From IMG/VR virus record IMGVR_UViG_3300048560_000012, positions 1-41,151 of that record: a DNA stretch of 41,151 nt; one strand, 5' to 3'. A model generated the notes under the pieces. The model made no database searches and was not told the DNA's origin. It worked only from the letters and a program-made list of their open reading frames with translations. Positions 14,097-41,130 of this stretch are shown one piece after another (position 1 is the stretch's first letter; the number at the start of each line of letters is the position of its first letter). This stretch comes from a virus (lineage: Duplodnaviria > Caudoviricetes). The position numbers and the translations under genes were made by a program.

Positions 14097-17000
14097 ATGG
14101 CTTCCCTCGTTCTTGGTGCGGTCGGCGCGGCTGTCGGTGCGGGGATCGGTGGTACCTTCCTTGGCATGTCCGCGGTCTCGCTTGGATGGAGCATCGGCTC
14201 CACCCTTGGCAGCATGCTCTTCAGCAACAAGGCAAAAGGCCAGGACATCTTGCAGGAAGGGTCGCGCCTCGGCGACCTCAAGGTGCAGACCTCCACTTAT
14301 GGCAATCCCCTTCCAATTTTCTACGGCAGCATGCGCGCGGCTGGAAACGTTATTTGGTCGACCGACATCGTCGAGACCCGGCATACCAGCACGCAATCCT
14401 CCGGCGGCGGCGGCAAGGGTGGCGGCGGTGGGGGCGGCGGCAGTACAGTTACGACGATCACCTACACCTATTCACAATCCTTCGCGGTGGCGATCGGCGA
14501 AGGCCCGATCACAGGCATCCGCAAAATCTGGGCGAACGGGAAGCTGATCTACAACCTGTCGGATTCCGCATCGCTTGCCACCATCGCCGCGAGCACGGCG
14601 GCAGTCAGCGGCATCCGCGTCTATACCGGCTCGGAATCGCAGACCGCCGACAGCCTGATCCAGGCCAACGTCGGCGCGGCGAATGCCCCGGCCTATCGCG
14701 GCACGGCCTACGTCGTGTTCAGCAGCCTGCAACTCGCCGACTACGGCAACCGGATGCCGAACGTCGAGTTCGAGGTCGTGGTGGCTGGGAATGTAGCGGA
14801 ATTGGCAACGTCCGATTTGACGCTTCCGTCTTCCAGTGATTGGGTGGCGTCGGCGTTTGGGAATGGGATGTTTCTTGTATTGAACAAGGGCCTTGCCGGT
14901 TTTCCGACGCCGGTTATCTCTCTGCGTTCTTATGACGCAGGTGCTAACTGGTCGTCATCACTGACGAACATGTCTTATTCTGTCTATCACTGCATTTTCG
15001 TATCGGGATTATTTTACGCAGGTACATCGACGGGGGTCTGGCGTAGTGCGGACGGGATCACATGGGCACAAGTCAAGTCCGGGATTACAGCAACAGCGCT
15101 AGCCTATGGTGATGGAATCATTTATGCGACCGCAAACGGATCAAGCGTTGTTTGGGCTTCCGGCGATGGATTGAACTGGGTTGCTTTCTCAATCAGCGGC
15201 ACCAACGCTTCATGGTTTGGCGTTGCCGCTGGGAATGGGATCGTTGTCGTAACTGCCAATGGCTCTAGCGCGGTTGCGCGCATTGCCTCTAACTGGCAGC
15301 CAATCACCATCGCATCATTGACAGGATACTTGCGGGTAGCTTACGGCAACGGCTTGTTTGTCGCAGCCGGTGGGAACGGCATGGCATATTCGACGGATGG
15401 AATTAATTGGACTGCCGGCGCTTCAGTCCCTGCTTCCGATCCGCAAAATGCTGTTTTTGGTGGAGGCAGCTTTGCCATCGTTGCCGGGGACAAAGTGTAC
15501 GTCACGTCTGACGGCATTACGGTTGTCTCGCATATAGAGACTGGACGGGTGTTTACTGGCCTATCCTATGGTGGCGGCATTTTCATTTCTCCAGCAGACA
15601 GTAGCACTTACGCTATAGGGTTCCTCCCCGCCCCCGTCATCAGCAGCGTCGCTGCGCCGCAATGCTCCACCATCGTTTCGGATATTTGCGAACGCACAGG
15701 GCTGACTACCAGTCAGATCAATGTCGCCGCATTGACTGACGAGGTGCATGGCTACGTCGTGCAGCGCTCGTCCGCGCGCTCGCAGATCGAGCAGTTGATG
15801 CGCGCCTTCTATTTTGATGCTGTCGAATCCAGTGGCAAGGTGAAGTTTGTCAAGCGTGGATCATCCTCGGCGCTCACAATTCCAGAAGACGATCTTGCGG
15901 CGCACGAGTACGGCTCCTCCCTGCCTGACACGGCGGTGATAGACCGCAAGCAAGAGATGGAACTCCCGCTGGAAACAGACATCCAATACCTTGACACTGG
16001 TGCGGCTTACCAAGTCGGTGCGCAGTACTCGCAGCGCCTCACCACTGAGAGCGAAAACAAGATCTCGTTGAACTTCGCCATTGCCATGAGCGCGATCAAG
16101 GCGAAGGAGATCGCTGACGTATTGATGTACGACGCATGGACAGGGCGGACACAGTTCAGTTTTCAGACAGGGTGGAAATATTCCTACCTCGAACCGACCG
16201 ATGTGTTCAGCATCGTTAAGGATGGACGCACATACGTCATTCGCCTCCAAGATGAAAACGTCAGCGTCATCAGCGCACGTCGCGCCGTGCTGGAAGACCC
16301 TTCTGTCTATACACAGTCAGGTGCAGCGGCGGAGATCATCGCGCCCGACGAGGATGTTGCGCTGACGCCGCTGACCAAGCTGATGTTGATGGACATCCCG
16401 CTCTTGCGCGATCAGGACGATGGCGTCGGCTTCTATGCCGCTGCATGCGGCTATGGTGCGGGGTGGTACGGAGCGCAAGCATACAAGTCCTCTGACGCTG
16501 GAGCAACGTGGGGCAGCTTTGGTCAGGGTTTCTTGAACGACGTAACGATGGGTTCAGCGACGAACGCCCTTGGCGATTTCACACGAAACGAGTTTGACGA
16601 AAAGAACAGTGTCACCGTTGTTCTCGTCAATGGCGAGCTCTCCAGCGATACCGAACTGAACGTGCTCAATGGGGCGAACGCCGCGTTGCTCGGCAGTGAG
16701 ATCATCCAGTTCAAAACGGCGACACTTATCGCGGCTGACACATACACCCTCACAGGTCTTCTCCGGGGTCGTAGGGGCACGGAATGGGCAACGGCAACCC
16801 ATGCGGCGGGGGATCGCTTTGTGCTGCTCGACGCCCTCTCTACGTATATTCTGGAAGGGTCTAGCACGGAATACGACCTAGAGCGGCATTACCGGGGGGC
16901 GTCATTCGGCGGCTTCCTCGACGAGGCAGAGACTGTTGCTTTTACCAATACCGCCGTTGCGCAGATGCCTTTTTCTCCTGTCTTGCTTGGCGGTGGGCGC

Positions 17001-17300
17001 AACGCGGCGGGAGATATCATCCTTAATTGGACGCGACGGACTCGCATCAGCGGGGGGTGGAACAGCTACGCGGACGTCCCGCTTGGCGAGGCAAGTGAGA
17101 TCTACACGGTAGAGATCTACAGCAATTCGGGATACGGAACCGTTTTGCGCACGATCACGGGTCTCACGTCTCCGACCACGGCCTACACTGCCGCGCAGCA
17201 GACAACTGACTTCGGCTCGCCACAATCGACTATATACTGGAAGGCATATCAAGTATCGTCAGTGGTGGGGACTGGATATGAAGCGAGAGGAGTAACCTAA
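14097..17300 (+). CDS. GTA-like central tail tip / host specificity protein with internal beta-propeller-like insert
   Basis: YG.PLP..YG.MR..GNVIW, PAYRGTAYVVF, LLRGRRGTE, WTRRTR, VPLGE. Confidence 0.88.
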   Translation: MASLVLGAVGAAVGAGIGGTFLGMSAVSLGWSIGSTLGSMLFSNKAKGQDILQEGSRLGDLKVQTSTYGNPLPIFYGSMRAAGNVIWSTDIVETRHTSTQSSGGGGKGGGGGGGGSTVTTITYTYSQSFAVAIGEGPITGIRKIWANGKLIYNLSDSASLATIAASTAAVSGIRVYTGSESQTADSLIQANVGAANAPAYRGTAYVVFSSLQLADYGNRMPNVEFEVVVAGNVAELATSDLTLPSSSDWVASAFGNGMFLVLNKGLAGFPTPVISLRSYDAGANWSSSLTNMSYSVYHCIFVSGLFYAGTSTGVWRSADGITWAQVKSGITATALAYGDGIIYATANGSSVVWASGDGLNWVAFSISGTNASWFGVAAGNGIVVVTANGSSAVARIASNWQPITIASLTGYLRVAYGNGLFVAAGGNGMAYSTDGINWTAGASVPASDPQNAVFGGGSFAIVAGDKVYVTSDGITVVSHIETGRVFTGLSYGGGIFISPADSSTYAIGFLPAPVISSVAAPQCSTIVSDICERTGLTTSQINVAALTDEVHGYVVQRSSARSQIEQLMRAFYFDAVESSGKVKFVKRGSSSALTIPEDDLAAHEYGSSLPDTAVIDRKQEMELPLETDIQYLDTGAAYQVGAQYSQRLTTESENKISLNFAIAMSAIKAKEIADVLMYDAWTGRTQFSFQTGWKYSYLEPTDVFSIVKDGRTYVIRLQDENVSVISARRAVLEDPSVYTQSGAAAEIIAPDEDVALTPLTKLMLMDIPLLRDQDDGVGFYAAACGYGAGWYGAQAYKSSDAGATWGSFGQGFLNDVTMGSATNALGDFTRNEFDEKNSVTVVLVNGELSSDTELNVLNGANAALLGSEIIQFKTATLIAADTYTLTGLLRGRRGTEWATATHAAGDRFVLLDALSTYILEGSSTEYDLERHYRGASFGGFLDEAETVAFTNTAVAQMPFSPVLLGGGRNAAGDIILNWTRRTRISGGWNSYADVPLGEASEIYTVEIYSNSGYGTVLRTITGLTSPTTAYTAAQQTTDFGSPQSTIYWKAYQVSSVVGTGYEARGVT

Positions 17301-19654
17301 TGGCGGATAGTACGACCAATCTGGACACGATCAGTAGCAGTCAGGCGCAGAAGGAGGTCACCGCCAACGCGATGTTTGACGCGGCGTCTCCCGCCATGCT
17401 CTACGGTCGTCGCGCCAGTACCACCAGCGCGCTGACGTGGGGGTACTACGGCGGCAGAGTCCTCATCTCCAACGTTCCTACGGCCATCGTCAACGGCACG
17501 GTCGCCCTGACTGCCAGTCAGACAAACTACGTTATCGCTGCGAGAGCTACCGGAGCAGTGTCTGTCTCAACCGTCACGACTAATTGGAACGACAGCACAA
17601 ACTACATTCGCCTCTACCAGATCGTCGCAGGGGCATCCAGCATTACCAGCTACACCGATCATCGCGCATGGGTCAATGTGACTCTAGGCGGGGGCAGTGG
17701 GGATGTCGCTACCGATGCGATCTGGGATGCCAAGGGCGATCTCGCAGTCGGCACTGGCGCGAACACTGCCGCTCGCCTTGCCGTTGGAACAAACGGTCAA
17801 GCGCTCGTCGCGGATAGCGCCGAAGCGACTGGCGTGAAATGGGCAACGCCAGCGGGAGGCGGCGATGTGGTCGGCCCGGCATCGGCTACGAACAACAGTC
17901 TTGCGCGGTTCGACGGTACGACCGGCAAACTACTGAAGGACGGTGCCGTAATCGGAACGGATGTCCAAGCCTATGACGCTACACTCCTGAACGCTGCGGA
18001 TATTGGCGTTAGCGTTCAAGCCTACGACGCAGACCTATCAACCCTAGCAGGGCTGACCACAACTACGGATAACTTCATTCAATCGAAGGCTAGTGCATGG
18101 GCGTCGCGCACTCCGACACAGGTCACGGCTGATTTGATCCCCTTTGTGGGGGACTCTGGTTCGGGTGGGTCTAAAGGTCTCGTTCCTACCCCGGCTATAG
18201 GCGACGCCACGAAAGTCTTAAAGGGAGATGGGACATGGGGGAGCGTATCGGGCGATGTCGCTACCGATGCGATCTGGGATGCCAAGGGCGATCTCGCAGT
18301 CGGCACTGGCGCAAACACTGCCGCTCGCCTTGCCGTTGGAACAAACGGTCAAGCGCTCGTCGCGGATAGCGCCGAAGCGACTGGCGTGAAATGGGCAACG
18401 CCAGCGGGAGGCGGCGACTTCATGGCGGATGGCAGCGTGCCGATGACAGGGCCGCTTGTAGCTACTACCATCGAACTCGGCCATGCCTCTGATACCACGC
18501 TTGCTCGCGTATCTGCCGGTGTCGTCTCGGTTGAGGGATCGAACGTCATCTTGGCGTCCGGCGGCAACCTAACAGGCGGGATCAACTCCGCCCGTGGAAA
18601 CATCACGCAACACGCGACGACGATGGACTTCTTCGCGGTCACGTCGCCGGATATTCTGGATGGGACGGGTTCTGCTGTGACGATCACTGCTTGCGTGAAT
18701 GCACCGCAGGCCGGAGCAACGCGGAAGTTCTACCCCATTGTCGCAACAGTTCTGACTCATGGCGCGACGTTCGATATTGCAGGTAACGCAAACCTCACGG
18801 CTGCCGCTGGCGATTGCTGGATCATCGAGGCAAAGACGGTATCGACGTATCGCGTTACTGCGGTGAAGGAGGATGGGACGGCGGTTGTGGGCGGCTCTGT
18901 ACAAATCCAGCCAATCAGCGCATCGGTCGGAGCAAGCGCTCTGACCATCAGCGCATCGGCCTTGTCGCTCGATTTCCGTTCGGCTACGCTGACCAGTGGA
19001 GCGGTGACAACGGTTAGCGGTACTCCGGCGAATCTTGTCATCAGTAGCGGCTCGACACTCGGCACGGTCAATGCGGTTCAGTCTCGCATTGCTGTCCTTG
19101 CATTGAACAACGCCGGCACGATCGAACTGGCTGCGGTGAATATCGCAGGCGGTAACGACCTGTCGGAAACAGGGCTTATCAGCACCACGGCAGAAGGCGG
19201 CACAGGCGCGGCGGATACCGCGAATGTCATCTACTCGACCACTGCGCGGACGAACGTCGCCTACCGCGTCATTGGCTACATCGAATCCACGCAGGCAACG
19301 GCAGGAACGTGGGCCACTACGCCAAGCACGATTCAGGGTGCGGGCGGGAACGCAGTCACGGCAATGTCGTCGCTCGGGTATGGACAGACATGGCAGAACA
19401 TGACAGGAAGTAGGTCGAAGTCGACAACATACTACAACACAACCGGAAAGCCGATTTGCGTCAGCATTAAGGTGTCACAGGCCGGCCCGGGCGAGGAATG
19501 CTATCTCACGATAAATGGCCAGGAGATGTGCAGAAACGCTGCCGTAGGAGCGGGATCAAAGCTTACCGTGTCGGGCATAGTCCCCCCCTTTGCATCATAC
19601 AGGATCGATCAAAACGGGACTACAACCCTCAGCCTGTGGGCTGAACTTCGCTGA
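17300..19654 (+). CDS. Tail fibre / receptor-binding protein
   Basis: QAQKEVTAN N-term, G/T/A-rich, C-term YGQTWQ..YYNTTGKPI..WAELR. Confidence 0.85.
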   Translation: MADSTTNLDTISSSQAQKEVTANAMFDAASPAMLYGRRASTTSALTWGYYGGRVLISNVPTAIVNGTVALTASQTNYVIAARATGAVSVSTVTTNWNDSTNYIRLYQIVAGASSITSYTDHRAWVNVTLGGGSGDVATDAIWDAKGDLAVGTGANTAARLAVGTNGQALVADSAEATGVKWATPAGGGDVVGPASATNNSLARFDGTTGKLLKDGAVIGTDVQAYDATLLNAADIGVSVQAYDADLSTLAGLTTTTDNFIQSKASAWASRTPTQVTADLIPFVGDSGSGGSKGLVPTPAIGDATKVLKGDGTWGSVSGDVATDAIWDAKGDLAVGTGANTAARLAVGTNGQALVADSAEATGVKWATPAGGGDFMADGSVPMTGPLVATTIELGHASDTTLARVSAGVVSVEGSNVILASGGNLTGGINSARGNITQHATTMDFFAVTSPDILDGTGSAVTITACVNAPQAGATRKFYPIVATVLTHGATFDIAGNANLTAAAGDCWIIEAKTVSTYRVTAVKEDGTAVVGGSVQIQPISASVGASALTISASALSLDFRSATLTSGAVTTVSGTPANLVISSGSTLGTVNAVQSRIAVLALNNAGTIELAAVNIAGGNDLSETGLISTTAEGGTGAADTANVIYSTTARTNVAYRVIGYIESTQATAGTWATTPSTIQGAGGNAVTAMSSLGYGQTWQNMTGSRSKSTTYYNTTGKPICVSIKVSQAGPGEECYLTINGQEMCRNAAVGAGSKLTVSGIVPPFASYRIDQNGTTTLSLWAELR
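17702..18417 (+). repeat. 164-bp direct repeat within the fibre gene (17702-17865 and 18254-18417)
   Basis: Read directly; one synonymous mismatch (GCG/GCA). Confidence 0.95.
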
Positions 19655-21230: not shown

Positions 21231-21612
21231 AGGACAACAGACTTTCGACTTCCTTGGCTTCTATCCGCAAAAGCCGAGCGGCTTCCGGGAAATAGTCACC
21301 GTACTTCATGATCCAACAGCGCCGTGCTTCGGTAACGCCGCCTTGTTCCACGCAGTACCAAACGTCGTCACCGTCGTAGCTGACAAGCCGCTTACCTGAG
21401 AGCTCTCCCACCTTTACCCGCAGGGCAGGGGCGTACAGGGGTGGGAATGCCCCCACTGGCAGGTCTTGCCCCCCGGTAGTACGGCGGGGGCGGGGCGGCG
21501 GGGCATCTAACAGGCTATAGTCCCGCCCCTCGACGGCCTTCTCGACAGCCGGGGCGGGGGTACCCCGCTTTGCCGCTAAGGGGAATGCCCACGGTAGGAC
21601 AGGCTTTTTCAT
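21229..21612 (-). CDS. Hypothetical protein, Pro-rich N-terminus
   Basis: ATGA-coupled to the upstream gene. Confidence 0.55.
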   Translation of the reverse strand: MKKPVLPWAFPLAAKRGTPAPAVEKAVEGRDYSLLDAPPPRPRRTTGGQDLPVGAFPPLYAPALRVKVGELSGKRLVSYDGDDVWYCVEQGGVTEARRCWIMKYGDYFPEAARLLRIEAKEVESLLS

Positions 21613-22367
21613 TCGGCAGGAAGGACCCCGGCGCTGAGCGTGGCCGCGAGAGCAAGGATCGTGAGCTTATGGGTACGCCAGAATGAGAGCGCATTCCGGT
21701 CCATGCGCGAGATGGTCTCGTCCGAAAACTTTTCCCAGAAGGAAAATTTATGATTCTGGCAACCGATTTGAAGATGGGTCTCCGAGAAAGCGATCGACCA
21801 GCTTAAACCGTTCAGTGCGATCAGAGAAGAACTTTCTGGTCCAGACCATTGAAGGACACCTCTGCAGTCCGTGCAGTCCGTGCAGCGCATGCAGTCCGTG
21901 CAGCCCGTGCAGCCCGTGCAGCGCGCGCAGCCCGTGCAGTCCGTGCAGCGCATGCAGTCCGTGCAGCGCATGCAGCCCGTGCAGTCCGTGCAGTCCGTGC
22001 AGCGCATGCAGTCCGTGCAGCGCATGCAGCCCGTGCAGCGCATGCAGCGCATGCAGTCCGTGCAGCGCACGCAGTCCGTGCAGTCCGTGCAGTCCGTGCA
22101 GCGCATGCAGCCCGTGCAGCGCATGCAGCCCGTGCAGTCCGTGCAGTCCGTGCAGCGCGTGCAGTCCGTGCAGCGCACGCAGTCCGTGCAGTCCGTGCAG
22201 TCCGTGCAGCGCATGCAGTCCGTGCAGCGCACGCAGTCCGTGCAGTCCGTGCAGTCCGTGCAATACGCGGCATCCATCGCAGCGGCTTGCGCGTCTGCGA
22301 GTTCTTGGGAAAGGTAAGAAACGCCGATGTTTCCCTTAGAAGTCTTGACAGATTCGTATCTTTTCAT
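21609..22367 (-). CDS. CxxCxx-repeat protein (45 Cys in array) with C-terminal domain like that of phage pentapeptide-repeat proteins
   Basis: AGGAG SD; C-term LQIGCQNH...W..F.D..I..MD..AL.FW...K. Confidence 0.75.
21864..22260. repeat. 9-bp minisatellite, about 44 units (GCAGTCCGT/GCAGCCCGT/GCAGCGCAT variants)
   Basis: Read directly. Confidence 0.95.
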
Positions 22368-22561
22368 TTGGGATCTCCTTGGCAAAGGCGACGCAAGTCG
22401 CGGTGGATGTTGTCTAGCGCACGGCGGTCGGACGGAGTATCGCTGACCGTAGTACAGCGGCCGGAAGGATGCTTCACCTTCCAGTGTCGCTTGCCCCGAA
22501 CCATGACCAGACCGTGCTCCAGAATGAACGGAGCCAGCAAATCGCGTAGGGTTTTGTTCAT
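22364..22561 (-). CDS. HicA-like small protein
   Basis: RGKRHWKVKHPSG..T.S.TPSDRRA..NI..DLRR. Confidence 0.6.
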   Translation of the reverse strand: MNKTLRDLLAPFILEHGLVMVRGKRHWKVKHPSGRCTTVSDTPSDRRALDNIHRDLRRLCQGDPK

Positions 22562-23094
22562 ATTAGACCCCATGCGTGAGGCGCGATTTGCCGGTATAGT
22601 TCAAACGGTGGATAGCGATGCGTCCAGGTAGCATCCCCCCGAAGGTGAAAGGCATACGCTGAAAGAAACATGAACTCAGCGCTCGAGAAATGGCTGAACT
22701 CACGAACGAGATTGACCGGCGGTTCAACGGGAATAGCGTTCGTCAGTGCCGGAGGTAATACAGAGATCAAGCCAGTATGGAACGCTTGCTCCAGCGGATG
22801 TCGCTCGCGCAGCGGGTAGCGGAAAGCGTACTCGTTGCAGAGCTCCTTGCCCGTGCGCTGCATCCATGAGTAGGACGAACGAGAGGATCCTGCGTACAGG
22901 CACCACGCAGTCAGCGCAGAACTGCCGTCACCGTGGAGGCCGCGTTGCTGGATATGCTTGCTGCGGTACGCGGCATGGACAGCGGTCAAGACCTCGTATG
23001 CCGTGCGGATCAGTCGGCTCAGGTCTTGGTCGCAGGGAACCTGCGCCGCGATGATCGGCACTGGATGGAAGTAGTAGAAGAGCGGGTCAGTCAT
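22558..23094 (-). CDS. Divergent pyrimidine-dimer DNA glycosylase (DenV-like) family protein
   Basis: PIIAAQ..CD, W....R..Y.W....G.ELCNEY.FRY...H, W..R.PP; AGGAG SD at 23101-23105. Confidence 0.6.
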   Translation of the reverse strand: MTDPLFYYFHPVPIIAAQVPCDQDLSRLIRTAYEVLTAVHAAYRSKHIQQRGLHGDGSSALTAWCLYAGSSRSSYSWMQRTGKELCNEYAFRYPLRERHPLEQAFHTGLISVLPPALTNAIPVEPPVNLVREFSHFSSAEFMFLSAYAFHLRGDATWTHRYPPFELYRQIAPHAWGLI

Positions 23095-23422
23095 GGCGTA
23101 CTCCTTTGAGGTTATTACGGTGACTGAGATGGCTACAGTCCGTGCAGTCCGTGCAGTCCATGCAGCGCACGCAGTCCGTGCAGTCCGTGCAGTCCGTGCA
23201 GCGCATGCAGCGCATGCAGTCCGTGCAGTCCATGCAGCGCACGCAGTCCGTGCAGTCCGTGCAGTCCGTGCAGCGCATGCAGCCCGTGCAGCGCATGCAG
23301 CCCGTGCAGTCCGTGCAATACGCGGCATCCATCGCAGCGGCTTGCGCGTCTGCGAGTTCTTGGGAAAGGTAAGAAACGCCGATGTTTCCCTTAGAAGTCT
23401 TGACAGATTCGTATCTTTTCAT
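23087..23422 (-). CDS. Short CxxCxx-repeat paralog (21 Cys), no C-terminal domain
   Basis: N-terminus identical to 21609..22367; AGGAG SD. Confidence 0.65.
23135..23317. repeat. Second 9-bp minisatellite array, about 20 units
   Basis: Same unit family as 21864-22260. Confidence 0.95.
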
Positions 23423-23423
23423 G

Positions 23424-23675
23424 TTATTCTCCTTCACGGCCGAGATAGTCGAGGTTGAACCACGTCCCCCGGTCAGTCAGGGTCATGCAACCCATGTCAC
23501 CGCCGAAGCAGTATTGGTGCTCATGATCGTTCCAGAAAAACTCACGCTGGACGGGCAGGTCTTTCGGCTTGCCCAGACGCGTCAGCATTCGGTTCGCTTT
23601 CGCGCAGATCTCATCAGCGTGCGTTTTGTCGCGAGCTACGGGCAGTTCAATCCAGATCTGGTCTTTCGTTTCCAT
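23424..23675 (-). CDS. Hypothetical protein
   Basis: AGGAG SD; operon context. Confidence 0.7.
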   Translation of the reverse strand: METKDQIWIELPVARDKTHADEICAKANRMLTRLGKPKDLPVQREFFWNDHEHQYCFGGDMGCMTLTDRGTWFNLDYLGREGE

Positions 23676-23755: not shown

Positions 23756-24739
23756 TCAGGTGAGCAGCGCTTCCTCGTATCGCTTGCGGAACCCCTTGTC
23801 CAGTTTCGTGGCAACCTGTTCAGCCAAGTCCCACAATTCCAGATTCAGTTCCACGTCGCGCTTGACGCGGGTGATCCCTTTCGTATGAACAGCACGACCG
23901 TTCGCGCTCTGGTATGCCATGCCCCCGCGCATGATGTTCTCCTGTACGCGGTTGAAGACGTTCCAGATATTGTCGGCTTCGTCCGCCGCACGACGGGGCA
24001 CCAGCAACGGGAGCGGCTCCTTGGCGAGTTGATGGTCTTCGCCATAGGCCAGTGCAGCGGCATTCCCGGCGAAGGGCGCGAGCCATGCTTGCGGAACCTT
24101 GATGCCCTGCATCGCCTTCACCTTGTCGGCGAGCAGTGCTGTCTCCTTGATAATGGTGTAGCTCCCCTCAATGACGCTGCTCACGTCACCGAGGTGACGG
24201 GTTTGCACCATGTTTTGACGACCCGCGCCGGTGACCAGTCCGTTGGAGCAGACCAGACGATACAGACCACCGAACATCTCGAACCGGACAGCGCCATTGT
24301 GGCCGTTGACGATGCCAACTTCAGGGAACACTTCGCCGAGAAGGGCTTTGGCGCCGTTACGACGGAAACGGATCATGTGACGCGTGGCCAGCACGTCCTC
24401 TTCGGTGCGAGCGCGATTCTGCATGGCGCGCACCGGGACAAACCCTTCCTTCAGCATGCGTTGCACGATCTCGGCAGTGTCGATGAACTCGTATTTGTCC
24501 GACACTCGCTCACTCGGCTCATTAGCGAAAGCGGCCGGAACCAGCTTACGCAGTTGCGCCATGGACAGGGACGCGCCGGTTTCTTTCGGCACGATAACGG
24601 CAGGAGCCGCGATCGCCTTGTTGAGGGCAGGTATCTTCTTGGCCAGAACGGTAGATGCTTTCTTGGCAGCGCGAGCAGCTTGCATCTTGGCGGCGAAATC
24701 GGCTTTTTGCTTGGCAGTCATTTGCTTTTTGGCAGTCAT
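23756..24739 (-). CDS. DUF932/DUF945-family protein with Lys/Ala-rich N-extension
   Basis: SDKYEFIDT, HMIRFR, NGHNG, GLYRLVCSNGL, WNVFNRVQEN..RGG, N.ELW. Confidence 0.85.
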   Translation of the reverse strand: MTAKKQMTAKQKADFAAKMQAARAAKKASTVLAKKIPALNKAIAAPAVIVPKETGASLSMAQLRKLVPAAFANEPSERVSDKYEFIDTAEIVQRMLKEGFVPVRAMQNRARTEEDVLATRHMIRFRRNGAKALLGEVFPEVGIVNGHNGAVRFEMFGGLYRLVCSNGLVTGAGRQNMVQTRHLGDVSSVIEGSYTIIKETALLADKVKAMQGIKVPQAWLAPFAGNAAALAYGEDHQLAKEPLPLLVPRRAADEADNIWNVFNRVQENIMRGGMAYQSANGRAVHTKGITRVKRDVELNLELWDLAEQVATKLDKGFRKRYEEALLT

Positions 24740-25548: not shown

Positions 25549-25572
25549 CAAAATTGCTTCATTATTCAGCGG

Positions 25573-26193
25573 TTAGTCGCCGCTGTCGCTGCTACTGTCG
25601 CTGCTACTGTCGCTGCTACTGTCGCTGCTACCGCCGCTGTCCCACCCCCCGGATGCACCTGCTCCGCTCATTTCGCCGCCTTTGCCGCTGAAGGATTCAC
25701 TTTCTTGCACGGGCAATAGAACTGGGATATCGACGGCGATCGCTGAAGGCTGATTCAGGATTGGAGAAGTAGTACCCGAAGACTGATCTTGATCGACGTA
25801 CCCCTTCGCGGTCGGTTCGCCTTCGGCTTCCGCTTCCATGAGCAATGCTGTCAATTCCTTTTCAGCATAGTCATACTGCCCTACAGTTATTGCGGCGATG
25901 ATATTGCATTCGCGATAACCGAGCAGGTTCCCCCGACAGAAGCCACCGGACGGCGGAGTATGACTGGTCGTTGTCCAACCAAGTGCTAACCAGTCTATTT
26001 CCTGGAACTTCTGCATGAAGTGCATCGCCTTGCGCAGATCGGTGATGCCACCCTTCTTACGCCAGCGCGAGACGTACTTGGTGATGCACCCTTTGAAGTA
26101 CCCCGGCCCGTAGCACGCGGCAGCGAAATCCCAATGTTGCATCTTGTCTGAACGGTAGTGATCTCCACCGATTTGAATGTCATTAGCGGCCAT
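25573..26193 (-). CDS. DUF3310 / T7 gp1.7-like putative nucleotide kinase with Gly/Ser tail
   Basis: QIGGDHY, QHWDF, GCITKYVSRW.KKGG..DL.KA.HF. Confidence 0.75.
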   Translation of the reverse strand: MAANDIQIGGDHYRSDKMQHWDFAAACYGPGYFKGCITKYVSRWRKKGGITDLRKAMHFMQKFQEIDWLALGWTTTSHTPPSGGFCRGNLLGYRECNIIAAITVGQYDYAEKELTALLMEAEAEGEPTAKGYVDQDQSSGTTSPILNQPSAIAVDIPVLLPVQESESFSGKGGEMSGAGASGGWDSGGSSDSSSDSSSDSSSDSGD

Positions 26194-26686
26194 GTTTCTC
26201 TCCTGTCAGTACAGCGTTGAAAAATGCAGCGGCACGATCATTGGGGTGACGCACTCGCTGCATGACGTGATCCATCCCGCGTCTCATGATCTCTCTGGCG
26301 TATGCGTTGCCCATGCACCATTCTTCCCGACACCAGAGCACGAGCTCCATCGCGTCACACCATTTGAGGACGTGCTTCTGGTACGGAGTGAGGTCGATCG
26401 CAGTGCCAAAGCGTGCGTCATACTCGGCTTCCACTTCAGTCAGTACGGCGGCAAGCTGAGGATTGTCCCACTTGGCCGGGGCGGGGATGTCGCCAGTGGC
26501 GGCTTCGCTCAGGTCGTGGTAAAGCGCAGCACGCACCAGCAGGAAGTCTGTCGGCTCTACTTCCAGCACGAGCATGGCGACCCCGTAGCTATGTTCGGCG
26601 ACGGTCTGTTGCCGGGTCATTCGCGCAGTGTGAAAGCGCACCACGGCAGAGGCATCGCGCAAAGCTTGGATGCGATAGTAGCTCAT
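26183..26686 (-). CDS. HD-domain 5'-deoxynucleotidase (YfbR-like)
   Basis: V.RFHT, QTVAEHSY, ALYHDLSE..TGDIP.PAK, KWCD. Confidence 0.88.
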   Translation of the reverse strand: MSYYRIQALRDASAVVRFHTARMTRQQTVAEHSYGVAMLVLEVEPTDFLLVRAALYHDLSEAATGDIPAPAKWDNPQLAAVLTEVEAEYDARFGTAIDLTPYQKHVLKWCDAMELVLWCREEWCMGNAYAREIMRRGMDHVMQRVRHPNDRAAAFFNAVLTGEKHGR

Positions 26687-27687
26687 GCTACGATCTCCGG
26701 TTGTCTGCGATCAATGCGCCGCTGGATCCAGTCGACGCATGCTTTGCGCCAATCTGGAACGGGGATTTCTGTAGCATACCGCCGAGCCGTGCGAAGCATT
26801 CCTGCCCGATAGCAAGCATGAGCTTGCTTCATGCAGAGTGCTGTCCGAAAAAATTCAGAATTGTAAAATACTCTTTGATAAGGAAGGTGGAACACTCTGA
26901 TGTCTTCGTCCAGATCTTCGGGATACACTGCCCGATTCCAAAGTGATGGCGAATCTATGCAAAGCATATCTGACGCATACGGATCATAGACGGTAACGCC
27001 GTGGTCTGCCTTGTGTGCTTGCCAGTACGGATTGTCCTCGTAGACATGCAAGCTGTCACTGACTTGGGTGTAGCGACCGACCGCTACCCCGACCCGCATG
27101 GCAACGTATTGCAGTAGGAAGCTGAACTGAACCGCGTTCGCGCCGTATGCTCCCCAGATGGCGTCGTTGCTGCGGTTGCAGACGGTCATATGCAGCTTGC
27201 CGTCACGGATCTTGAACATCACCATGTCGTTGCAGGGGATGTCCTTGCTGTCCGTGCCGAGGTCCAGCCGGGGGTCGTAGATGGAGATCACGGCGCGACG
27301 CGTGTCCGGCTGAATTTTCAAAAGATCCACGACCCTATCCAGTTGATCCATGCCGAACGCTGACCGAAGGCGATATCCATATGCGCCATGGAACGTCGTG
27401 CCGTTGTCACTGTATTCAGCAATCCGTGGCAGGTAACGCGCCGGAGTGGCGACGTCCTGTCCGCCGTTGAGGATCCACAGCGCCTCGAAGAAATGGAAGA
27501 ACGGGTTAGCGTCCCGTTCGGCGTCAAACAGGACGCATTCTTGCGGACAGTAGTAGACCGTGGCAACCGGCTCCGGGTACTCTATTACCTTCATCCCACG
27601 AGACACTCTCGGCACTCCACGTTCGCGCAGATGCAGCAATGCGAGCGGAAGCGCTTCATTGACGTTGCGTACATTCAAGACCAACAT
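26683..27687 (-). CDS. Thymidylate synthase-family dUMP hydroxymethylase
   Basis: RDANPFF, GAYGYRL, DIPCND, NRSND.IWG..GAN (Asn at the dUMP-specificity position), SLHVY. Confidence 0.85.
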   Translation of the reverse strand: MLVLNVRNVNEALPLALLHLRERGVPRVSRGMKVIEYPEPVATVYYCPQECVLFDAERDANPFFHFFEALWILNGGQDVATPARYLPRIAEYSDNGTTFHGAYGYRLRSAFGMDQLDRVVDLLKIQPDTRRAVISIYDPRLDLGTDSKDIPCNDMVMFKIRDGKLHMTVCNRSNDAIWGAYGANAVQFSFLLQYVAMRVGVAVGRYTQVSDSLHVYEDNPYWQAHKADHGVTVYDPYASDMLCIDSPSLWNRAVYPEDLDEDIRVFHLPYQRVFYNSEFFRTALCMKQAHACYRAGMLRTARRYATEIPVPDWRKACVDWIQRRIDRRQPEIVA

Positions 27688-28535
27688 GATTTCTCCTTGT
27701 CGGCGAGGCCGGGGTACGTCGCACGCGGACGGCCCTCGCCGTTCAGTGTCCGCATGTACTTATCGAATTCGCACAGACAGTTCTGCAAGTCTTGCGCATG
27801 GATGCCGCGGATACCTTCTTTCTCCAACAACGGAAGGATTTGTCTGTGAAGATCTTGTAATGCGTTGAGCCAGTCGGCTTCCCTCCATGGATCTTTCACC
27901 GGACGACCCAGAACGCGGTTGAGGCCGCGACGACTCCCCGGCCCTGACGCCGCCCATGTATCCCAGTCCGGTGCTCCTGCGAGTGGCGAGACGTACTTGA
28001 GGTCAGCGACTACTTGCGCCGACATGAAACTGCCCATGCCGTTAAAGCGTGACAGCCGCGCATGGTACGACGCTAGGGGTTCCCCGAAGTATGGCCGCAG
28101 GGACGCACGAGAAGCCCAGAGAGGGGTCAATACGTGCTTGGCAAGGTAGTCGGCCTTGTCCATGGCGTGGCCGTTTGTGCTGACGATGTACGCCCCGCTG
28201 AACGCTTTCTTCCCTTGTGTTTGACGGTCATGCATCGCCTTGAGAAACCGCTTTGGGTTCCACGGCACCGGGTAGCCGATTTCACGCAGCGTCTCCGGCC
28301 AATTGATCAAGCGCGCGACTACCATTGCAAACCATTCGTCTTCCAATATTCCTTCAAGTGGGTCACGCCAGTTCTGCGCGATCCACTTTGTCACCGTGTC
28401 ATGCTCGCGACGGACATTGCAGAAACGGTACGACTGCAGGATCAGGTCTTTCGTCCAAGGTTTCGGCTCGCCGCGTTGCCGCTTCAAGCGAATAGATTCC
28501 CGCTCCTTGATCCAGTAGATGAGTTTCTTGATCAT
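27675..28535 (-). CDS. 5-hydroxymethyluracil DNA kinase-like (aGPT-Pplase1 family)
   Basis: WIKERESI...PWT.D.IL..YRFCNVRREHD, F...QVVADL, GPGS.RGL, QNCLCEFDKY. Confidence 0.85.
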   Translation of the reverse strand: MIKKLIYWIKERESIRLKRQRGEPKPWTKDLILQSYRFCNVRREHDTVTKWIAQNWRDPLEGILEDEWFAMVVARLINWPETLREIGYPVPWNPKRFLKAMHDRQTQGKKAFSGAYIVSTNGHAMDKADYLAKHVLTPLWASRASLRPYFGEPLASYHARLSRFNGMGSFMSAQVVADLKYVSPLAGAPDWDTWAASGPGSRRGLNRVLGRPVKDPWREADWLNALQDLHRQILPLLEKEGIRGIHAQDLQNCLCEFDKYMRTLNGEGRPRATYPGLADKEKSCWS

Positions 28536-28771
28536 GACAGTAGCTCCTCTCCTTCAGTCCATTTGATCATTTTGTCGACACCCTTGAACACTACCGCCGC
28601 ACGCTCTGGCGAGATCATGCCGACGTGGATGCGGTCGCCGAACACTTGCGCGACGACACAGGTGGTCTGTCCCTTGGCACTGAGACGTTTGACTTCTCGC
28701 TGAAATCCGGCTTTCTCAATCGCGCGTTGCTGTCGCGCTGTTAGCTTGAGTACGAGAAACGGGTAAGACAT
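28532..28771 (-). CDS. Hypothetical protein
   Basis: AGGAG SD; ATGA-coupled to the kinase gene. Confidence 0.65.
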   Translation of the reverse strand: MSYPFLVLKLTARQQRAIEKAGFQREVKRLSAKGQTTCVVAQVFGDRIHVGMISPERAAVVFKGVDKMIKWTEGEELLS

Positions 28772-28807
28772 CGTTTGCTCCTAGTGTAACGGGATGTTCA
28801 GAATAAC

Positions 28808-28836
28808 AAGATAGTCCAGTCAAGTAAATGTGTCAA
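28808..28836 (-). promoter_or_regulatory. Sigma70-like promoter (TTGACA-17-TATCTT)
   Basis: Consensus -35, optimal spacing, intergenic. Confidence 0.7.
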
Positions 28837-28846
28837 TGGAGTGCAG

Positions 28847-29638
28847 TCAGTCCTGCGAAAACACTGCCGGGAAGACTTCTGTCTTCGGCTTGATCACCAG
28901 ATCCAGAACGCCCTTGTACTCCCGGATAGCAGTGATCTCGGGATACTTGGCATGCAGGTATTCTGTTGCTTCCTTCTCGCCCTCCGCAGTGCGCGACACT
29001 TGATGCCCCCCGGGGACACTCCAGTACTTGCTATCGACGCCGAAGCTGCGGAACTTGCACACTCCACCGAAGCGCTCGTACATCAGCAACGCACGCTCGT
29101 GACTCTCCTTCCCGGCTTTGTAGTCCAGCCGCGTCTTGATGTACTGCCCCTCGTCCACCAGCAAATCGTGCAGGTTGATCAACCCGTAGAAATTGCCGAC
29201 TAGGTAGATGCGACCGACAGACACTTTGTGCTTCATCTCCAGATTGGAATCCGTGGAGTTGATACCGAACATCCGCATGCCCCGAACATCCGTTGCGGCA
29301 AAGGCGGCTTCTATGAAGTCATGCATCTTGGTCGCTTTGAGCCGTTTGCCTTGCCTGTTCAGCCCTACAATCTTCTTGATGTCGTCGTCTATGAATAGTA
29401 GATGTTCTCCTTCTGGGAAATACCGCTGGATGAAGTTCCGCTGATTGGGGATACCGCGTTTTCCAACAACGACCTTGATGTCCTTCGGCAATGCAGCGCG
29501 ATACGCTTTGGCCTCTGCGTTGTCGGCAACAAAAACATAGATGTCTTGTACTACGTCTGTCCGTAGCAGACATGCCAGCGTATGCGACTGGAGGATGTCC
29601 GCTCTTTTGTAAGACGGGATGATGATCTTGTAGGTCAC
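28847..29638 (-). CDS. TAGT/GREB1-like GT-A DNA glycosyltransferase
   Basis: IIIPSYKRA, GI..QRNFI, LFIDDDI (DxD), KE..ER.L, PGG. Confidence 0.75.
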   Translation of the reverse strand: MTYKIIIPSYKRADILQSHTLACLLRTDVVQDIYVFVADNAEAKAYRAALPKDIKVVVGKRGIPNQRNFIQRYFPEGEHLLFIDDDIKKIVGLNRQGKRLKATKMHDFIEAAFAATDVRGMRMFGINSTDSNLEMKHKVSVGRIYLVGNFYGLINLHDLLVDEGQYIKTRLDYKAGKESHERALLMYERFGGVCKFRSFGVDSKYWSVPGGHQVSRTAEGEKEATEYLHAKYPEITAIREYKGVLDLVIKPKTEVFPAVFSQD

Positions 29639-31584: not shown

Positions 31585-33540
31585 TTATTTCCTCCAGCGT
31601 TTAGCAAAAAATCCCTCTGCCGCGATCGGACACGATCCCCCCCATTGCGGCATTTCACAGAGGAGCTTTTCGTACCCTTCCACAGACCCGAACCCTTCAT
31701 CTGTTTCGGAAATGATTTCATCATGTACCGTGCCGACTACGTCATACCCTGCGGCTTCTACATTGTGCATCCCTTGCACCATGATGTCGCGTGCGATAGC
31801 CTGTACGATGTTCTCGACCAGCTTGCCCCCGTAAGTGCTGAGGCGCATCCATTGCTTATTCTTGCCCTCACCCATGAAGGTCAGTTCCGCTTTGAAGTCA
31901 CCGAACTTCTTGACCGTGCGCACTTCGGGGTCGGGATACGCCAGACGGCGACCGCTCGGCAACTGGACGAACAAGAACCTGTCTTGAACATAGAACCGAA
32001 TGTCGCGCGCCTTGTAGATCTTGCCGGGGTTGCTGACCGCTGCAATGGCCGCGTTCTCTACAAGACGCCAGAATTTCGGCACCATTGGATGAGTGTCGCG
32101 GTATCCGTAGACCCCGCGCTCAGCGATATTCCGTTCGACTGGTGCGCCTCGCTGCTCACAGGTGAGTATGAACTTATCCACGCCCATGCCGAAGCCGCAT
32201 CCGAGGATGACGTCCTTGCCGACCTTGCGTTGCGCACTGTCGATCAGTCCGACCGGAATGCCGAAGATATGTGACGCCATGATCTTGTATTGGTCGATGT
32301 TCTGGCGGTACCGTTCTATCGCGTCTTGCTGTCCCGCTGTCCAGACTAAATCTCGCGCCTCAATGGCGGCATAGTCGGCAACGTTCAGCACGCGTCCGTC
32401 AGGAGCGCAGAGCACGCCCCGCATGGCAGATCCTAGCAGGGTCATGAGTGGTTCTGGGTAGAGCAGTATCGCCCCTTCTACGTTGCCAGCGTGAAGCAGG
32501 TCTACGATCCGCGCCTGATCCGCCTTGCCGTGTAAAGGGCGAACGAAATTATGCGGTTGAAGCAGCTTGCCCGACCAGCGACCGGTCGTCGCGCCGTGGT
32601 AGAGCAACGTTCCGCGAACGCGATTGTCTGCGCTGATGAACTCTTTTATCTTAGTCAGTTTCTTCGTGCTGACCTTCCCCGCTTCCAGCCGGATTTCCAA
32701 GAGCCGTGCTACGTTCTCTGGGATCTCGGATAGGATGTCCGCCGCCAGTGTGTCCGTCAGTTCCTTGGCTTGCAACGTGTCAACGCCACCACCTTCAGCG
32801 CTCAGCCATTCCAGTACTTTGTCACGCTGCGTTACCCGTAGTCCGCCGGTCAGCTTGAGTGCTTCTTGTTCCAGATCATAAAGCCGACTGGAAGCGATTT
32901 CGATCATGGAGTCGACCAGATCCATATCTATCGGCAATCCACGTTCATTGATGCGCGTGTCCATGCGCCAGACTTTTTCCTCTGCATCTGGCAGTTTTGG
33001 CAATGCGTCGTAGAGCGCACGCTCCACCCGAACGTCTTGTGCGCAGTATTCTACGAGCTCCTCAAACCCAGACGGGTCTTCCCACGTATAGATGCGGATG
33101 CCGGGGTCAGCCTTGGTCGGCTTGCGCGGCAGACAGAACCGCTTGATGAGCTGAGCGCCTCGCTTGTCCTTGCGCACGGTCATGCCGATGGCGGCAGCGG
33201 CTTTGTCTAGCGCCCTTGGCAAGGCGAGTGCAGCGGCTTGCGCGGCAGTGCAGCGCCACTGATCTTCCTTTGGCATGGGGAAACCTAGATGCGGAACGAG
33301 ATCGTGCAAGAACGCGAGTCGCTCAAACTGCGCATTGTGCGCACCGATTGGTTCGCCAGCATGGATGCGTTGCGCAAGGACTGCGGGGACTGGATCACCC
33401 CGTCGCCATTTCTGCACTTCGCCATTGTCGATCGACCAGCAGAAGCAGAGCGTTTCCGTGCTCTCGTCTTCCCAGTATCTCCACGCGCCGACATTGCGGA
33501 CGCTGAGAAGGCTGAACGATTCTACGTCTAGATGTAGCAT
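31585..33540 (-). CDS. Family A DNA polymerase with 3'-5' exonuclease
   Basis: LDVES, AHNAQFE, YCAQDV, TGRWSG, ADYAAIEAR, RKVGK..ILGCGFG, TVHDEII. Confidence 0.95.
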   Translation of the reverse strand: MLHLDVESFSLLSVRNVGAWRYWEDESTETLCFCWSIDNGEVQKWRRGDPVPAVLAQRIHAGEPIGAHNAQFERLAFLHDLVPHLGFPMPKEDQWRCTAAQAAALALPRALDKAAAAIGMTVRKDKRGAQLIKRFCLPRKPTKADPGIRIYTWEDPSGFEELVEYCAQDVRVERALYDALPKLPDAEEKVWRMDTRINERGLPIDMDLVDSMIEIASSRLYDLEQEALKLTGGLRVTQRDKVLEWLSAEGGGVDTLQAKELTDTLAADILSEIPENVARLLEIRLEAGKVSTKKLTKIKEFISADNRVRGTLLYHGATTGRWSGKLLQPHNFVRPLHGKADQARIVDLLHAGNVEGAILLYPEPLMTLLGSAMRGVLCAPDGRVLNVADYAAIEARDLVWTAGQQDAIERYRQNIDQYKIMASHIFGIPVGLIDSAQRKVGKDVILGCGFGMGVDKFILTCEQRGAPVERNIAERGVYGYRDTHPMVPKFWRLVENAAIAAVSNPGKIYKARDIRFYVQDRFLFVQLPSGRRLAYPDPEVRTVKKFGDFKAELTFMGEGKNKQWMRLSTYGGKLVENIVQAIARDIMVQGMHNVEAAGYDVVGTVHDEIISETDEGFGSVEGYEKLLCEMPQWGGSCPIAAEGFFAKRWRK

Positions 33541-40699: not shown

Positions 40700-40830
40700 C
40701 CACTGACCGGCGGGGTACCAGAGCCAAGATGTTCAGACTCTAAGATCGGAAGTGGTACCTAATCCGGCAACGTGGAGGGCAGTGGCGACGATACCCCTGC
40801 CAGTGTATCGGAGCCTATAGTGAGGGCACC

Positions 40831-41130
40831 ATGAGCAAGAAGCACGGTTCGCACGGCAAGAGGACGACAGGACGCAAGTGGCAGAAGCGACGAGAGTCGG
40901 TGCTCGCTGCTAACCCGATCTGTGTCGCGTGTAGCGCAGCGGGTCGCGTGGCCTCGGCAACGGAGGTCGATCATATCGTTCCGTTGCAGCATGGCGGCGA
41001 CGACTCATGGGATAATCTGCAATCGCTCTGTCACGATTGTCATGTGGATAAAACGAATGCAGAGATGGGACGAAAGCCGAAAGCGTGGATCGGACTTGAC
41101 GGTTGGCCGGTGGGGGTAGACGAAAAGTGA
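40831..41130 (+). CDS. HNH endonuclease (HK97 gp74-like packaging cofactor)
   Basis: CxxC, VDHIVP..HGG, NLQSLC..CH..KT; precedes terS if the genome is circularised. Confidence 0.9.
   Translation: MSKKHGSHGKRTTGRKWQKRRESVLAANPICVACSAAGRVASATEVDHIVPLQHGGDDSWDNLQSLCHDCHVDKTNAEMGRKPKAWIGLDGWPVGVDEK

What the first reader, a model, noticed from the sequence alone, without database searches (positions are those of the whole stretch)
25573..29638. Thymidine hypermodification block with a TAGT-like sugar transferase instead of an amino acid:DNA transferase
Seen: DUF3310, HD nucleotidase, TS-family enzyme with dUMP-type Asn, 5hmU-DNA-kinase-like protein, a 79-aa unknown and a TAGT/GREB1-like GT-A. 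Known: in M6/YuA/ViI/PhiW-14-type pathways 5hmU is phosphorylated on DNA and then substituted by an aGPT-Pplase2 transferase; TAGT-like enzymes glycosylate hydroxymethylpyrimidines (base J, TET phages). I find no Pplase2, radical SAM, PLP or TET gene here. Inference: the DNA may carry glycosyl-hmU (base J-like), phospho-hmU, or an undescribed sugar-phospho-T.
Basis: partly seen in the sequence, partly recalled or inferred. Interest (0 to 1): 0.8.

Follow-up and report, generated by a model that had tools for sequence, protein, structure and literature searches.

The report
Kinase-free phage thymine sugar-coating cassette
An uncultured phage carries a gene block that likely replaces thymine in its DNA with hydroxymethyluracil and likely caps it with a sugar, using a sugar-adding enzyme whose closest relatives sit beside predicted thymine-oxidising enzymes; this would be a base-J-like DNA disguise.

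Summary
The genes are real, but the 286-aa 'kinase' is the helical aGPT-Pplase1 (M6 gp55 homolog), not the P-loop 5-hmdU kinase (M6 gp54). No kinase, amino acid:DNA transferase, PLP, radical SAM or TET gene was found in the probably complete 41-kb genome, so phospho-hmU and sugar-phospho-T are unsupported. The TS has dUMP-hydroxymethylase residues. Among 114 dereplicated loci with this TS, 46 carry a TAGT glycosyltransferase, 44 a kinase and 1 both, often in the same slot. The window's TS nests among kinase-bearing loci, while its GT nests in a clade mostly found in ParB–TET/JBP–GT cassettes without a cytosine methyltransferase. Two routes to 5hmU therefore share one GT clade. Best reading (0.65): 5hmU is incorporated, then O-glycosylated on DNA (base-J-like; sugar unknown). 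Pplase1 keeps the catalytic Cys and is a candidate for the unassigned hmU-to-T step. The TS+Pplase1+GT co-occurrence is in print, occurs in cultured phages PhiJL001 and LuckyBarnes, and this scan noted it before on other DNA; I found no chemical proof. New variant of a known kind.

The parts
28847..29638 (-). TAGT-family GT-A glycosyltransferase, 263 aa, of the 'ESH' subclade; predicted DNA 5hmU O-glycosyltransferase
   Evidence: PF20691 43.2 bits; R12 and D84-D85-D86 invariant in 41 sequences, ESH in place of ED[F/Y]; AF2 pLDDT 96, GT-A fold, best viral match TM 0.84 to the S-CBWM1 GT; pI 9.2; nests among TET-context GTs; GTG start overlaps the helicase stop
28808..28836 (-). sigma70-like promoter (TTGACA, 17 nt, TATCTT) in the 75-bp gap between the GT and the 79-aa gene
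   Evidence: best site of the region, 10 of 12 matches; the region has 6 sites against 4.8 +/- 2.3 in shuffles, so only a lead
28532..28771 (-). 79-aa basic protein of unknown function, lineage-restricted
   Evidence: 5 homologs at 70-76% identity; no family or usable atlas hit; found in none of the fetched loci
27675..28535 (-). aGPT-Pplase1 (PF18723), 286 aa; not a kinase; keeps Cys255 in the register of the transferase's catalytic Cys
   Evidence: 33% identity to M6 gp55; Z 10.1 (rmsd 4.2, 215 aligned) to PaMx11 gp46 8z2m, tied with an HhH glycosylase; C255 invariant in 47 of 47; register from a non-significant hhalign
26683..27687 (-). thymidylate-synthase-fold enzyme, predicted dUMP hydroxymethylase, 334 aa
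   Evidence: 45% identity to M6 gp58; Asp at the L143 position, catalytic Cys, Asp169, Asn177 (meaning of the positions from PMC13326640)
26183..26686 (-). HD-domain (YfbR-like) nucleotidase, predicted to deplete thymidine nucleotides
   Evidence: PF12917 E 5e-16; 42% identity to M6 gp59; substrate inferred
25573..26193 (-). DUF3310 protein, predicted hmdUMP kinase, with a Ser/Gly/Asp-rich tail
   Evidence: PF11753; 36% identity to M6 gp61; DUF3310 linked to T7 gp1.7 nucleotide kinase (PMC10700055)
29635..31023 (-). SNF2-type helicase; upstream border of the modification slot
   Evidence: the same position in related loci
31585..33540 (-). family A DNA polymerase, 651 aa; would incorporate hmdUTP
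   Evidence: role inferred

Best explanation
The block likely makes 5-hydroxymethyl-dUMP with its thymidylate-synthase-fold enzyme, would put hydroxymethyluracil into phage DNA in place of thymine, and its TAGT glycosyltransferase likely hangs one sugar on that hydroxyl in the finished DNA, giving a base-J-like nucleotide without any phosphorylation step. Shown: gene identities, active-site residues, folds, no kinase, amino acid transferase or TET in the record, and the neighbourhoods of relatives. Inferred: (1) dUMP to hmdUMP; (2) DUF3310 plus host kinases make hmdUTP while the HD enzyme removes competing thymidine nucleotides; (3) the polymerase incorporates it; (4) the GT transfers a sugar from a host nucleotide-sugar (identity unknown; the block has no sugar-synthesis genes) to the 5-hydroxymethyl oxygen; (5) least certain: Pplase1 uses Cys255 on the remaining hmU, possibly converting it to thymine. 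The likely purpose is shielding DNA from host nucleases. The GT was probably taken from a ParB-TET/JBP-GT cassette and replaced the kinase of a kinase-type block.
For: TS signature equals that of M6 gp58. No kinase, ADDT or TET in the record. The record looks complete: terL starts at 543 against 542 in HK022, and contigs of 4 of 4 runs end at 41150 without loose ends. GT and kinase exclude each other: 33 GT, 21 kinase, 0 both in 73 Pplase1 loci; 46 GT-only, 44 kinase-only, 1 both, 23 neither in 114 TS clusters; whole-record kinase search positive in 1 of 44 GT records (1 of 20 at >=90% complete) and 6 of 6 controls. The states alternate on the TS tree (18 changes among 88 rows). Independent pairs differing in kinase: GT goes the expected way in 5.8 of 10, the other way in 0, median p 0.03. 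The window's TS lies in a starred clade with 11 kinase rows. Of 47 loci fetched for the window's GT subclade (duplicates included), 45 have a TET/JBP gene, mostly with ParB (Pfam check), and 0 of 22 such records have a C5 methyltransferase; ParB-linked phage dioxygenases oxidise thymine in DNA (PMC13229309). Phage GT-A enzymes of this kind glycosylate hydroxymethyl bases in DNA and resemble the base J glucosyltransferase (bioRxiv 10.1101/2023.12.21.572611).
Against: No chemistry for any TS+TAGT phage was found. The window's GT subclade has E178-S179-H180 where the family motif is ED[F/Y], so the usual catalytic Asp is replaced; activity or linkage could differ. With GT as the tested trait the independent-pairs test was not significant (4.5 vs 0, median p 0.125). 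The one characterised ParB-dependent dioxygenase processed T and 5mC comparably in vitro. None of 5 contig names searched was in that paper's supplements, so the dioxygenases beside the GT's relatives are untested. L174 carries GT, kinase and transferase together. CheckV rates the record 88% complete, and the left end was not tested by read-laying. No dCMP deaminase was found, so dUMP supply depends on the host. A promoter-like site lies between the GT and the TS block. Pplase1 is absent from some complete TS+GT and TS+kinase genomes, so step 5 is not obligatory.
Confidence: 0.65

Rival explanations
1. The DNA carries only plain 5hmU and/or T. The GT is inactive on DNA or glycosylates something else, such as a virion or host-surface component.
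For: ESH in place of ED[F/Y]; promoter-like site between GT and TS block; top solved-structure matches are cell-wall and polysaccharide GTs such as TarS; about 65% of GT-containing viral contigs lack a base-modification neighbour.
Against: S179, H180 and E181 are invariant across 26 sequences at 38-90% identity; the subclade is tied to TET/JBP genes; the GT sits in the kinase slot; a separate GT-like gene lies in the head module.
Confidence: 0.13
2. Pplase1 is a cryptic transferase. It attacks C6 with Cys255 and swaps the hydroxyl, or the GT-added sugar used as a leaving group, for an amine or other nucleophile, so the final base is not a simple O-glycoside.
For: Fold and Cys shared with the amino acid:DNA transferase; SP10, which makes glutamyl-T, has Pplase1 fused to its kinase and no detectable PF18724 gene; 43 of 46 GT-only TS clusters have Pplase1 nearby.
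Against: M6 gp55 was dispensable for glycine transfer; known transferases need the phosphate leaving group, and there is no kinase; the metal ligands Glu-Thr of gp46 are Gln-Asn here; 0 of 21 TET-GT records have Pplase1 and some complete TS+GT genomes lack it.
Confidence: 0.1
3. One reading: an unrecognised kinase (79-aa protein, DUF3310, a host enzyme or missing sequence) phosphorylates hmU in DNA.
For: The TS lineage is otherwise kinase-bearing; CheckV 88%; sugar-phosphate thymidines exist in SP-15 and Carin-5 (PMC12686479).
Against: No kinase by three searches; GT and kinase exclude each other; SP-15-type phages have sugar-enzyme clusters and >900-aa UDG-fused polymerases, against 651 aa here.
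Confidence: 0.05
4. The GT glycosylates hmdUMP or hmdUTP before replication, and the polymerase incorporates the sugar-bearing nucleotide.
For: Adjacency to nucleotide-pool enzymes; inference only.
Against: The subclade's usual partners act on the DNA polymer and not on nucleotides; the GT is basic, pI 9.2, like the DNA-acting Pplase1 and unlike the TS, HD and DUF3310 proteins.
Confidence: 0.05

Closest known systems
Thymidine hypermodification of phages M6, PaMx11, ViI, PhiW-14, SP10 (PMC5889632, PMC8989533, PMC13458397)
   Same: dUMP hydroxymethylase, HD protein, DUF3310 and aGPT-Pplase1 are homologous to M6 gp58, gp59, gp61 and gp55.
   Different: No P-loop 5-hmdU kinase, no amino acid:DNA transferase, no PLP or radical SAM tailoring enzyme; a TAGT glycosyltransferase instead.
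Trypanosome base J pathway (JBP1/2 plus J-glucosyltransferase)
   Same: Predicted product type (sugar on 5-hydroxymethyluracil) and a GT-A enzyme of the class that resembles JGT.
   Different: 5hmU would come from the nucleotide pool, not from a dioxygenase (no TET); sugar and anomer unknown; ESH motif.
ParB-dependent phage T-dioxygenase cassettes (PMC13229309) and 5mYOX-linked GT-A enzymes (PMC8256090; bioRxiv 10.1101/2023.12.21.572611)
   Same: The window's GT belongs to a clade found in ParB-TET/JBP-GT cassettes.
   Different: Here the GT is paired with a TS. In the passages I read, the GT chemistry shown is on 5hmC; I saw none on 5hmU.
TS + aG/PT-PPlase1 + 5'-deoxynucleotidase + glucosyltransferase region of HTVC023P-type pelagiphages (PMC9599517); phage PhiJL001 gp19-gp26; Brevibacterium phage LuckyBarnes gp38-gp41
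   Same: The same core of TS, Pplase1 and TAGT GT; PhiJL001 and LuckyBarnes have no kinase and no PF18724 match over the cut-off.
   Different: PhiJL001, LuckyBarnes and the other TS-linked GTs I fetched form the separate ED-type clade (53 rows); the pelagiphage GTs were not examined. The paper notes co-location only in the passages read.
SP-15 / YerA41 / Carin-5 oligosaccharide-phospho-thymidines (PMC12686479)
   Same: Sugar-bearing thymidine in phage DNA.
   Different: Alkyl linker, phosphate, several sugar enzymes and a UDG-fused polymerase; none is indicated here.

Membership tests
5-HMUDK/AADT thymidine hypermodification (M6 type) | dUMP hydroxymethylase homolog | tested here: met
   45% identity to M6 gp58; D143/Cys/D169/N177
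5-HMUDK/AADT thymidine hypermodification (M6 type) | P-loop 5-hmdU DNA kinase | tested here: not met
   no hit; the same profile found M6, P26218 and 6 of 6 controls
5-HMUDK/AADT thymidine hypermodification (M6 type) | amino acid:DNA transferase (aGPT-Pplase2, PF18724) | tested here: not met
   positive controls
5-HMUDK/AADT thymidine hypermodification (M6 type) | aGPT-Pplase1 paralog | tested here: met
   PF18723 153.9 bits; 33% identity to M6 gp55
dUMP hydroxymethylase | Asn177 (dUMP), acidic residue at 143 (hydroxymethyl product), Asp169 (not a 5hoC synthase), catalytic Cys | tested here: met
   criteria from PMC13326640
dUMP hydroxymethylase | forms hmdUMP | not testable with these tools
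   needs an assay
TAGT / JGT-like DNA glycosyltransferases | PF20691 above cut-off and GT-A fold | tested here: met
   43.2 bits vs 27.5
TAGT / JGT-like DNA glycosyltransferases | R...DDD motifs | tested here: met
   R12 and D84-86 invariant; motif
TAGT / JGT-like DNA glycosyltransferases | ED[Y/F] motif | tested here: not met
   E178-S179-H180-E181 instead, conserved in the subclade; basal members of the same clade keep EDY or DDF
TAGT / JGT-like DNA glycosyltransferases | sugar transfer to a hydroxymethylpyrimidine in DNA | not testable with these tools
   needs an assay
Base J pathway | TET/JBP thymine dioxygenase | tested here: not met
   PF12851: 0 matches in the record
Base J pathway | beta-D-glucose on hmU | not testable with these tools
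   sugar and anomer cannot be read from sequence
Amino acid:DNA transferase (for the 286-aa protein) | catalytic Cys in the C-terminal helix | tested here: inconclusive
   C255 invariant; register with gp46 Cys247 rests on a non-significant hhalign and a weak PF18724 match to the PhiJL001 homolog (E 8e-4)
Amino acid:DNA transferase (for the 286-aa protein) | Glu-Thr metal ligands before the Cys | tested here: not met
   Gln-Asn here; QN or EH in most homologs
SP-15/Carin-5 sugar-phospho-thymidine | sugar-synthesis gene block and >900-aa UDG-fused PolA | tested here: not met
   651-aa PolA; no such genes in the block; criteria

The most novel reading that the evidence does not exclude
This phage family makes base J or a new sugar analogue from a pre-replicative 5hmU pool, using a glycosyltransferase subclade with a rewired active site (ESH) that moves as a module between dioxygenase-based and hydroxymethylase-based phages. 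aGPT-Pplase1 is the long-missing enzyme that turns leftover 5hmU in DNA into thymine through a Cys adduct, here without any kinase.
Probability: 0.18. Interest if true: 0.85.

Novelty: new variant of a known kind. Interest (0 to 1): 0.58.

Why it matters
The characterised 5hmU hypermodification routes in the papers I read all pass through the kinase. Here a kinase-free glycosyl branch is as common as the kinase branch among relatives (46 vs 44 of 114 clusters), yet ten literature searches found no chemistry for it. The window is a natural swap experiment: one GT clade serves both the dioxygenase route and the hydroxymethylase route, whose only shared product is 5hmU in DNA. Two cultured phages (PhiJL001, LuckyBarnes) make the question testable now. 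A phage 5hmU glycosyltransferase would bear on the origin of base J and could label 5hmU. Virions of M6, ViI, SP10 and PhiW-14 contain T but no 5hmU (PMC8989533), and I found no assigned enzyme for that step; Pplase1 is a concrete candidate.

Tried and rejected
Rejected 'HMUDK_hel = kinase': the label fits SP10 gp186, a kinase-Pplase1 fusion (that this is the label's origin is my inference). A Walker-A scan of six frames found only 5 hits, in frames of 30-78 aa; the primase-helicase P-loop did not match the patterns, so this scan is weak alone. hhalign of Pplase1 against M6 gp51 was not significant (probability 0.5%), and the Pplase1 profile found no solved structure by sequence. Foldseek gave no E<=0.001 match for Pplase1; its best was gp46 at E 0.03. 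The 79-aa protein gave no family or atlas lead. Five contig names searched in the PNAS 2026 supplements gave no hit. Four-base palindrome counts were uninformative. RNA-library contigs cover the block but cannot show transcription. Iyer et al. 2013 (PMC3763556) is not held; it may already predict glycosylated T for such loci. Supplements of the Pyle bioRxiv preprint (for example its list of genomes with GT-A) are closed and could bear on novelty. The Fisher p of 2e-13 ignores relatedness and is not relied on. In some searches I read window 40759-40992 on the wrong strand; there is one HNH gene (40831-41130), not two. No complex prediction was sent.


Full report
Setting. The window is the whole record G000, a 41,151-bp linear virus contig that CheckV rates 88% complete. 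It is an HK97/HK022-type siphophage: terminase, portal, capsid and tail genes on the plus strand, replication genes on the minus strand. It is probably complete. Its terL starts at base 543, against 542 in HK022, an HNH gene lies at the right end, and contigs of 4 of 4 runs stop at 41150 with no loose ends (these runs may include the source). One 9.1-kb contig spans 25602-34000 in one piece (same caveat).

Observation. On the minus strand the order is helicase, GT (28847-29638), 79-aa ORF, 286-aa protein, TS, HD, DUF3310, with overlapping or abutting starts and stops except for a 75-bp gap after the GT that holds a promoter-like site. Pfam confirms TAGT, HMUDK_hel, thymidylate synthase, YfbR-like HD and DUF3310. 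The TS is 45% identical to M6 gp58 and has Asp at the E. coli L143 position, the catalytic Cys, Asp169 and Asn177. By the criteria in PMC13326640 (passages) this indicates a dUMP hydroxymethylase, not a dTMP, hmdCMP or 5-hydroxy-dCMP synthase.

The correction. The 286-aa protein is not the kinase. It matches M6 gp55 (33%, E 4e-42) and not gp54. In PMC8989533 (passages and sections 21 and 23) gp54 is the P-loop 5-hmdU kinase, gp51 the transferase, and gp55 was dispensable. The model (pLDDT 94) is all-helical and matches PaMx11 gp46 and HhH glycosylases at Z about 10. No kinase was found by tblastn/phmmer, PF18748 or a 17-sequence profile that detects M6, P26218 and 6 of 6 control records. ADDT, TET, dCMP deaminase and M6-type PLP and radical SAM enzymes were also not found.

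GT and kinase are alternatives. In 73 viral loci fetched with Pplase1, 33 carry a TAGT-type GT, 21 a kinase and none both; often the order is helicase, GT or kinase, Pplase1, TS, HD, DUF3310 (20 of 21 sampled GTs matched PF20691, one of them below the cut-off). Adding 80 TS-fetched loci (the best 80 of 114 found), 148 TS loci gave 114 clusters at 90%: 46 GT only (the window included), 44 kinase only, 1 both, 23 neither; 15 of the 23 carry members of three other recurring families, one with weak GT-B matches. Flanks can be cut short, so I searched whole records: 1 of 44 GT records has a kinase (1 of 20 at >=90% complete, which took 44 of 60 GT loci because of the 50-locus limit). On a FastTree TS tree (112 rows) the two states change 18 times among 88 rows. 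Independent pairs gave 4.5 vs 0 (median p 0.125) with GT as the trait and 5.8 vs 0 (median p 0.03) with kinase as the trait. Exclusion in one slot is what two enzymes competing for the same hydroxyl would give; that is inference.

The window is a chimera. Its TS sits in a starred clade with 11 kinase-bearing rows. Its GT is only 14-19% identical to 8 of 8 sampled TS-linked GTs and nests in another clade (quick IQ-TREE). Of 47 loci fetched for that subclade (duplicates included, 14 distinct at 92%), 45 have a TET/JBP gene next to the GT, mostly with ParB; one is too short and one (L108) has a helicase upstream as here. None of 22 such viral records (3 at >=90% complete) has a C5 methyltransferase. 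PMC13229309 (passages, section 5, a term search of supplements) shows that ParB-linked phage dioxygenases make 5hmU in DNA, though the purified example processed 5mC comparably. Cultured outgroups (Acadian, Lilmac1015, S-CBWM1) are TET-linked too. Four contig lengths recur in both the GT and Pplase1 hit lists (19468, 43402, 17586, 6202), suggesting that the ESH-GT plus Pplase1 pairing occurs in other assemblies; this is inferred from lengths only. The direction TET cassette to TS block follows from parsimony on a midpoint-rooted tree and was not tested further.

The GT. It has a confident GT-A model, best viral match TM 0.84 to the S-CBWM1 GT, R12 and D84-86, and a basic pI of 9.2. The family motif is R...DDD...ED[Y/F] (bioRxiv 10.1101/2023.12.21.572611, passages). 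Here the last element is E178-S179-H180-E181, with S179, H180 and E181 invariant in 26 subclade members. Conservation argues for function, but the catalytic base and sugar are open. No sugar-synthesis gene is in the block, so a host donor is likely.

Pplase1. C255 is invariant in 47 of 47. A non-significant hhalign places it on the transferase motif whose Cys247 attacks C6 in gp46 (PMC11472151 passages); the metal ligands Glu-Thr are Gln-Asn here. It tracks the TS route: present in 43 of 46 GT-only and 36 of 44 kinase-only clusters, absent from 21 of 21 TET-GT records, but also absent from some complete TS genomes. Virions of M6, ViI, SP10 and PhiW-14 hold T and no 5hmU, and gp51 yields T with borohydride. 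A role in turning hmU into T is my hypothesis (about 0.25); one search found no paper assigning it. SP10 has only a kinase-fused Pplase1 and no PF18724 match, which keeps a transferase role open.

What is known. PMC9599517 (passages) notes TS, aG/PT-PPlase1, 5'-deoxynucleotidase and a putative glucosyltransferase together in pelagiphages. The Pyle preprint reports GT-A genes spread between 5mYOX and ThyS contexts. Cultured PhiJL001 and LuckyBarnes have TS, Pplase1 and TAGT with no kinase. Ten searches (search listings only, apart from the papers named) found no chemical demonstration of O-glycosylated 5hmU in phage DNA; subscription journals are mostly not covered and Iyer et al. 2013 was not available. 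Also read as passages: PMC5889632, PMC13458397, PMC12686479 (first part and passages; 11, 126), PMC8256090, PMC10700055, PMC11946847, PMC10201439. This scan has noted the kinase-less GT cassette on other DNA; those notes are not independent evidence.

Verdict. The block is real, and the likely product is a base-J-like glycosyl-5hmU made without a kinase (0.65). It works like base J synthesis joined to an M6-type nucleotide pool, but is a member of neither pathway. The gene set is widespread and noted in print; what this window adds is the GT swap that links two routes to 5hmU, plus cultured test cases. New variant of a known kind; interest 0.58.

Noticed in passing
window 5565-7100 (+) and 7082-7702 (+): Between major capsid and head-tail adaptor genes: a GT-like protein (PHROG 'alpha-2,3-sialyltransferase' plus an unknown domain; weak atlas leads to MptE-like and GT9 clusters) and a methyltransferase (PF13489). 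Possibly virion glycosylation.
   Followed up: partly
L208 (AY576273.1) 6635-11477 and L209 (NC_047851.1) 4601-8616: Cultured phages PhiJL001 and Brevibacterium phage LuckyBarnes carry TS, Pplase1 and one or two TAGT GTs without a kinase; ready material for nucleoside analysis.
   Followed up: yes
L203 1987-5331, L204 1-3025: Arthrobacter phage Lilmac1015 and mycobacteriophage Acadian carry ParB, TET/JBP, GT and a PIG-L deacetylase, suggesting an amino-sugar on 5hmU.
   Followed up: partly
L012, L015, L016, L019, L039, L123, L125, L160 and others: 19 of 44 kinase-only TS clusters show no amino acid:DNA transferase in the fetched flank (some flanks are cut short); these may stop at 5-phosphomethyl-U or rely on Pplase1.
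   Followed up: no
L004, L005, L006, L023, L049, L051, L054, L061, L075 and others: TS+Pplase1 loci with neither kinase nor TAGT carry recurring unannotated families (clusters c19, c21, c22, c25; one with weak GT-B matches) and sometimes radical SAM/SPASM genes.
   Followed up: no
L174 1486-9538: The one locus with a full M6-type set (transferase, PLP, radical SAM, kinase) and a TAGT GT as well.
   Followed up: partly
L211 (SP10) 17383-19296 and 14652-17342: SP10 gp186 is a kinase-Pplase1 fusion; no PF18724 match in the genome; gp185 has no Pfam match.
   Followed up: partly
window 21609-22385 (-) and 23087-23437 (-): Two ORFs matching phrog_15341; the second is built of Cys-rich CxxCxx repeats.
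   Followed up: no
window 23756-24739 (-): DUF932 protein among the early genes.
   Followed up: no
window 25573-25790 (-): The DUF3310 protein has a low-complexity Ser/Gly/Asp tail; one low-depth contig in run X10 replaces 25549-25786 by other letters.
   Followed up: no
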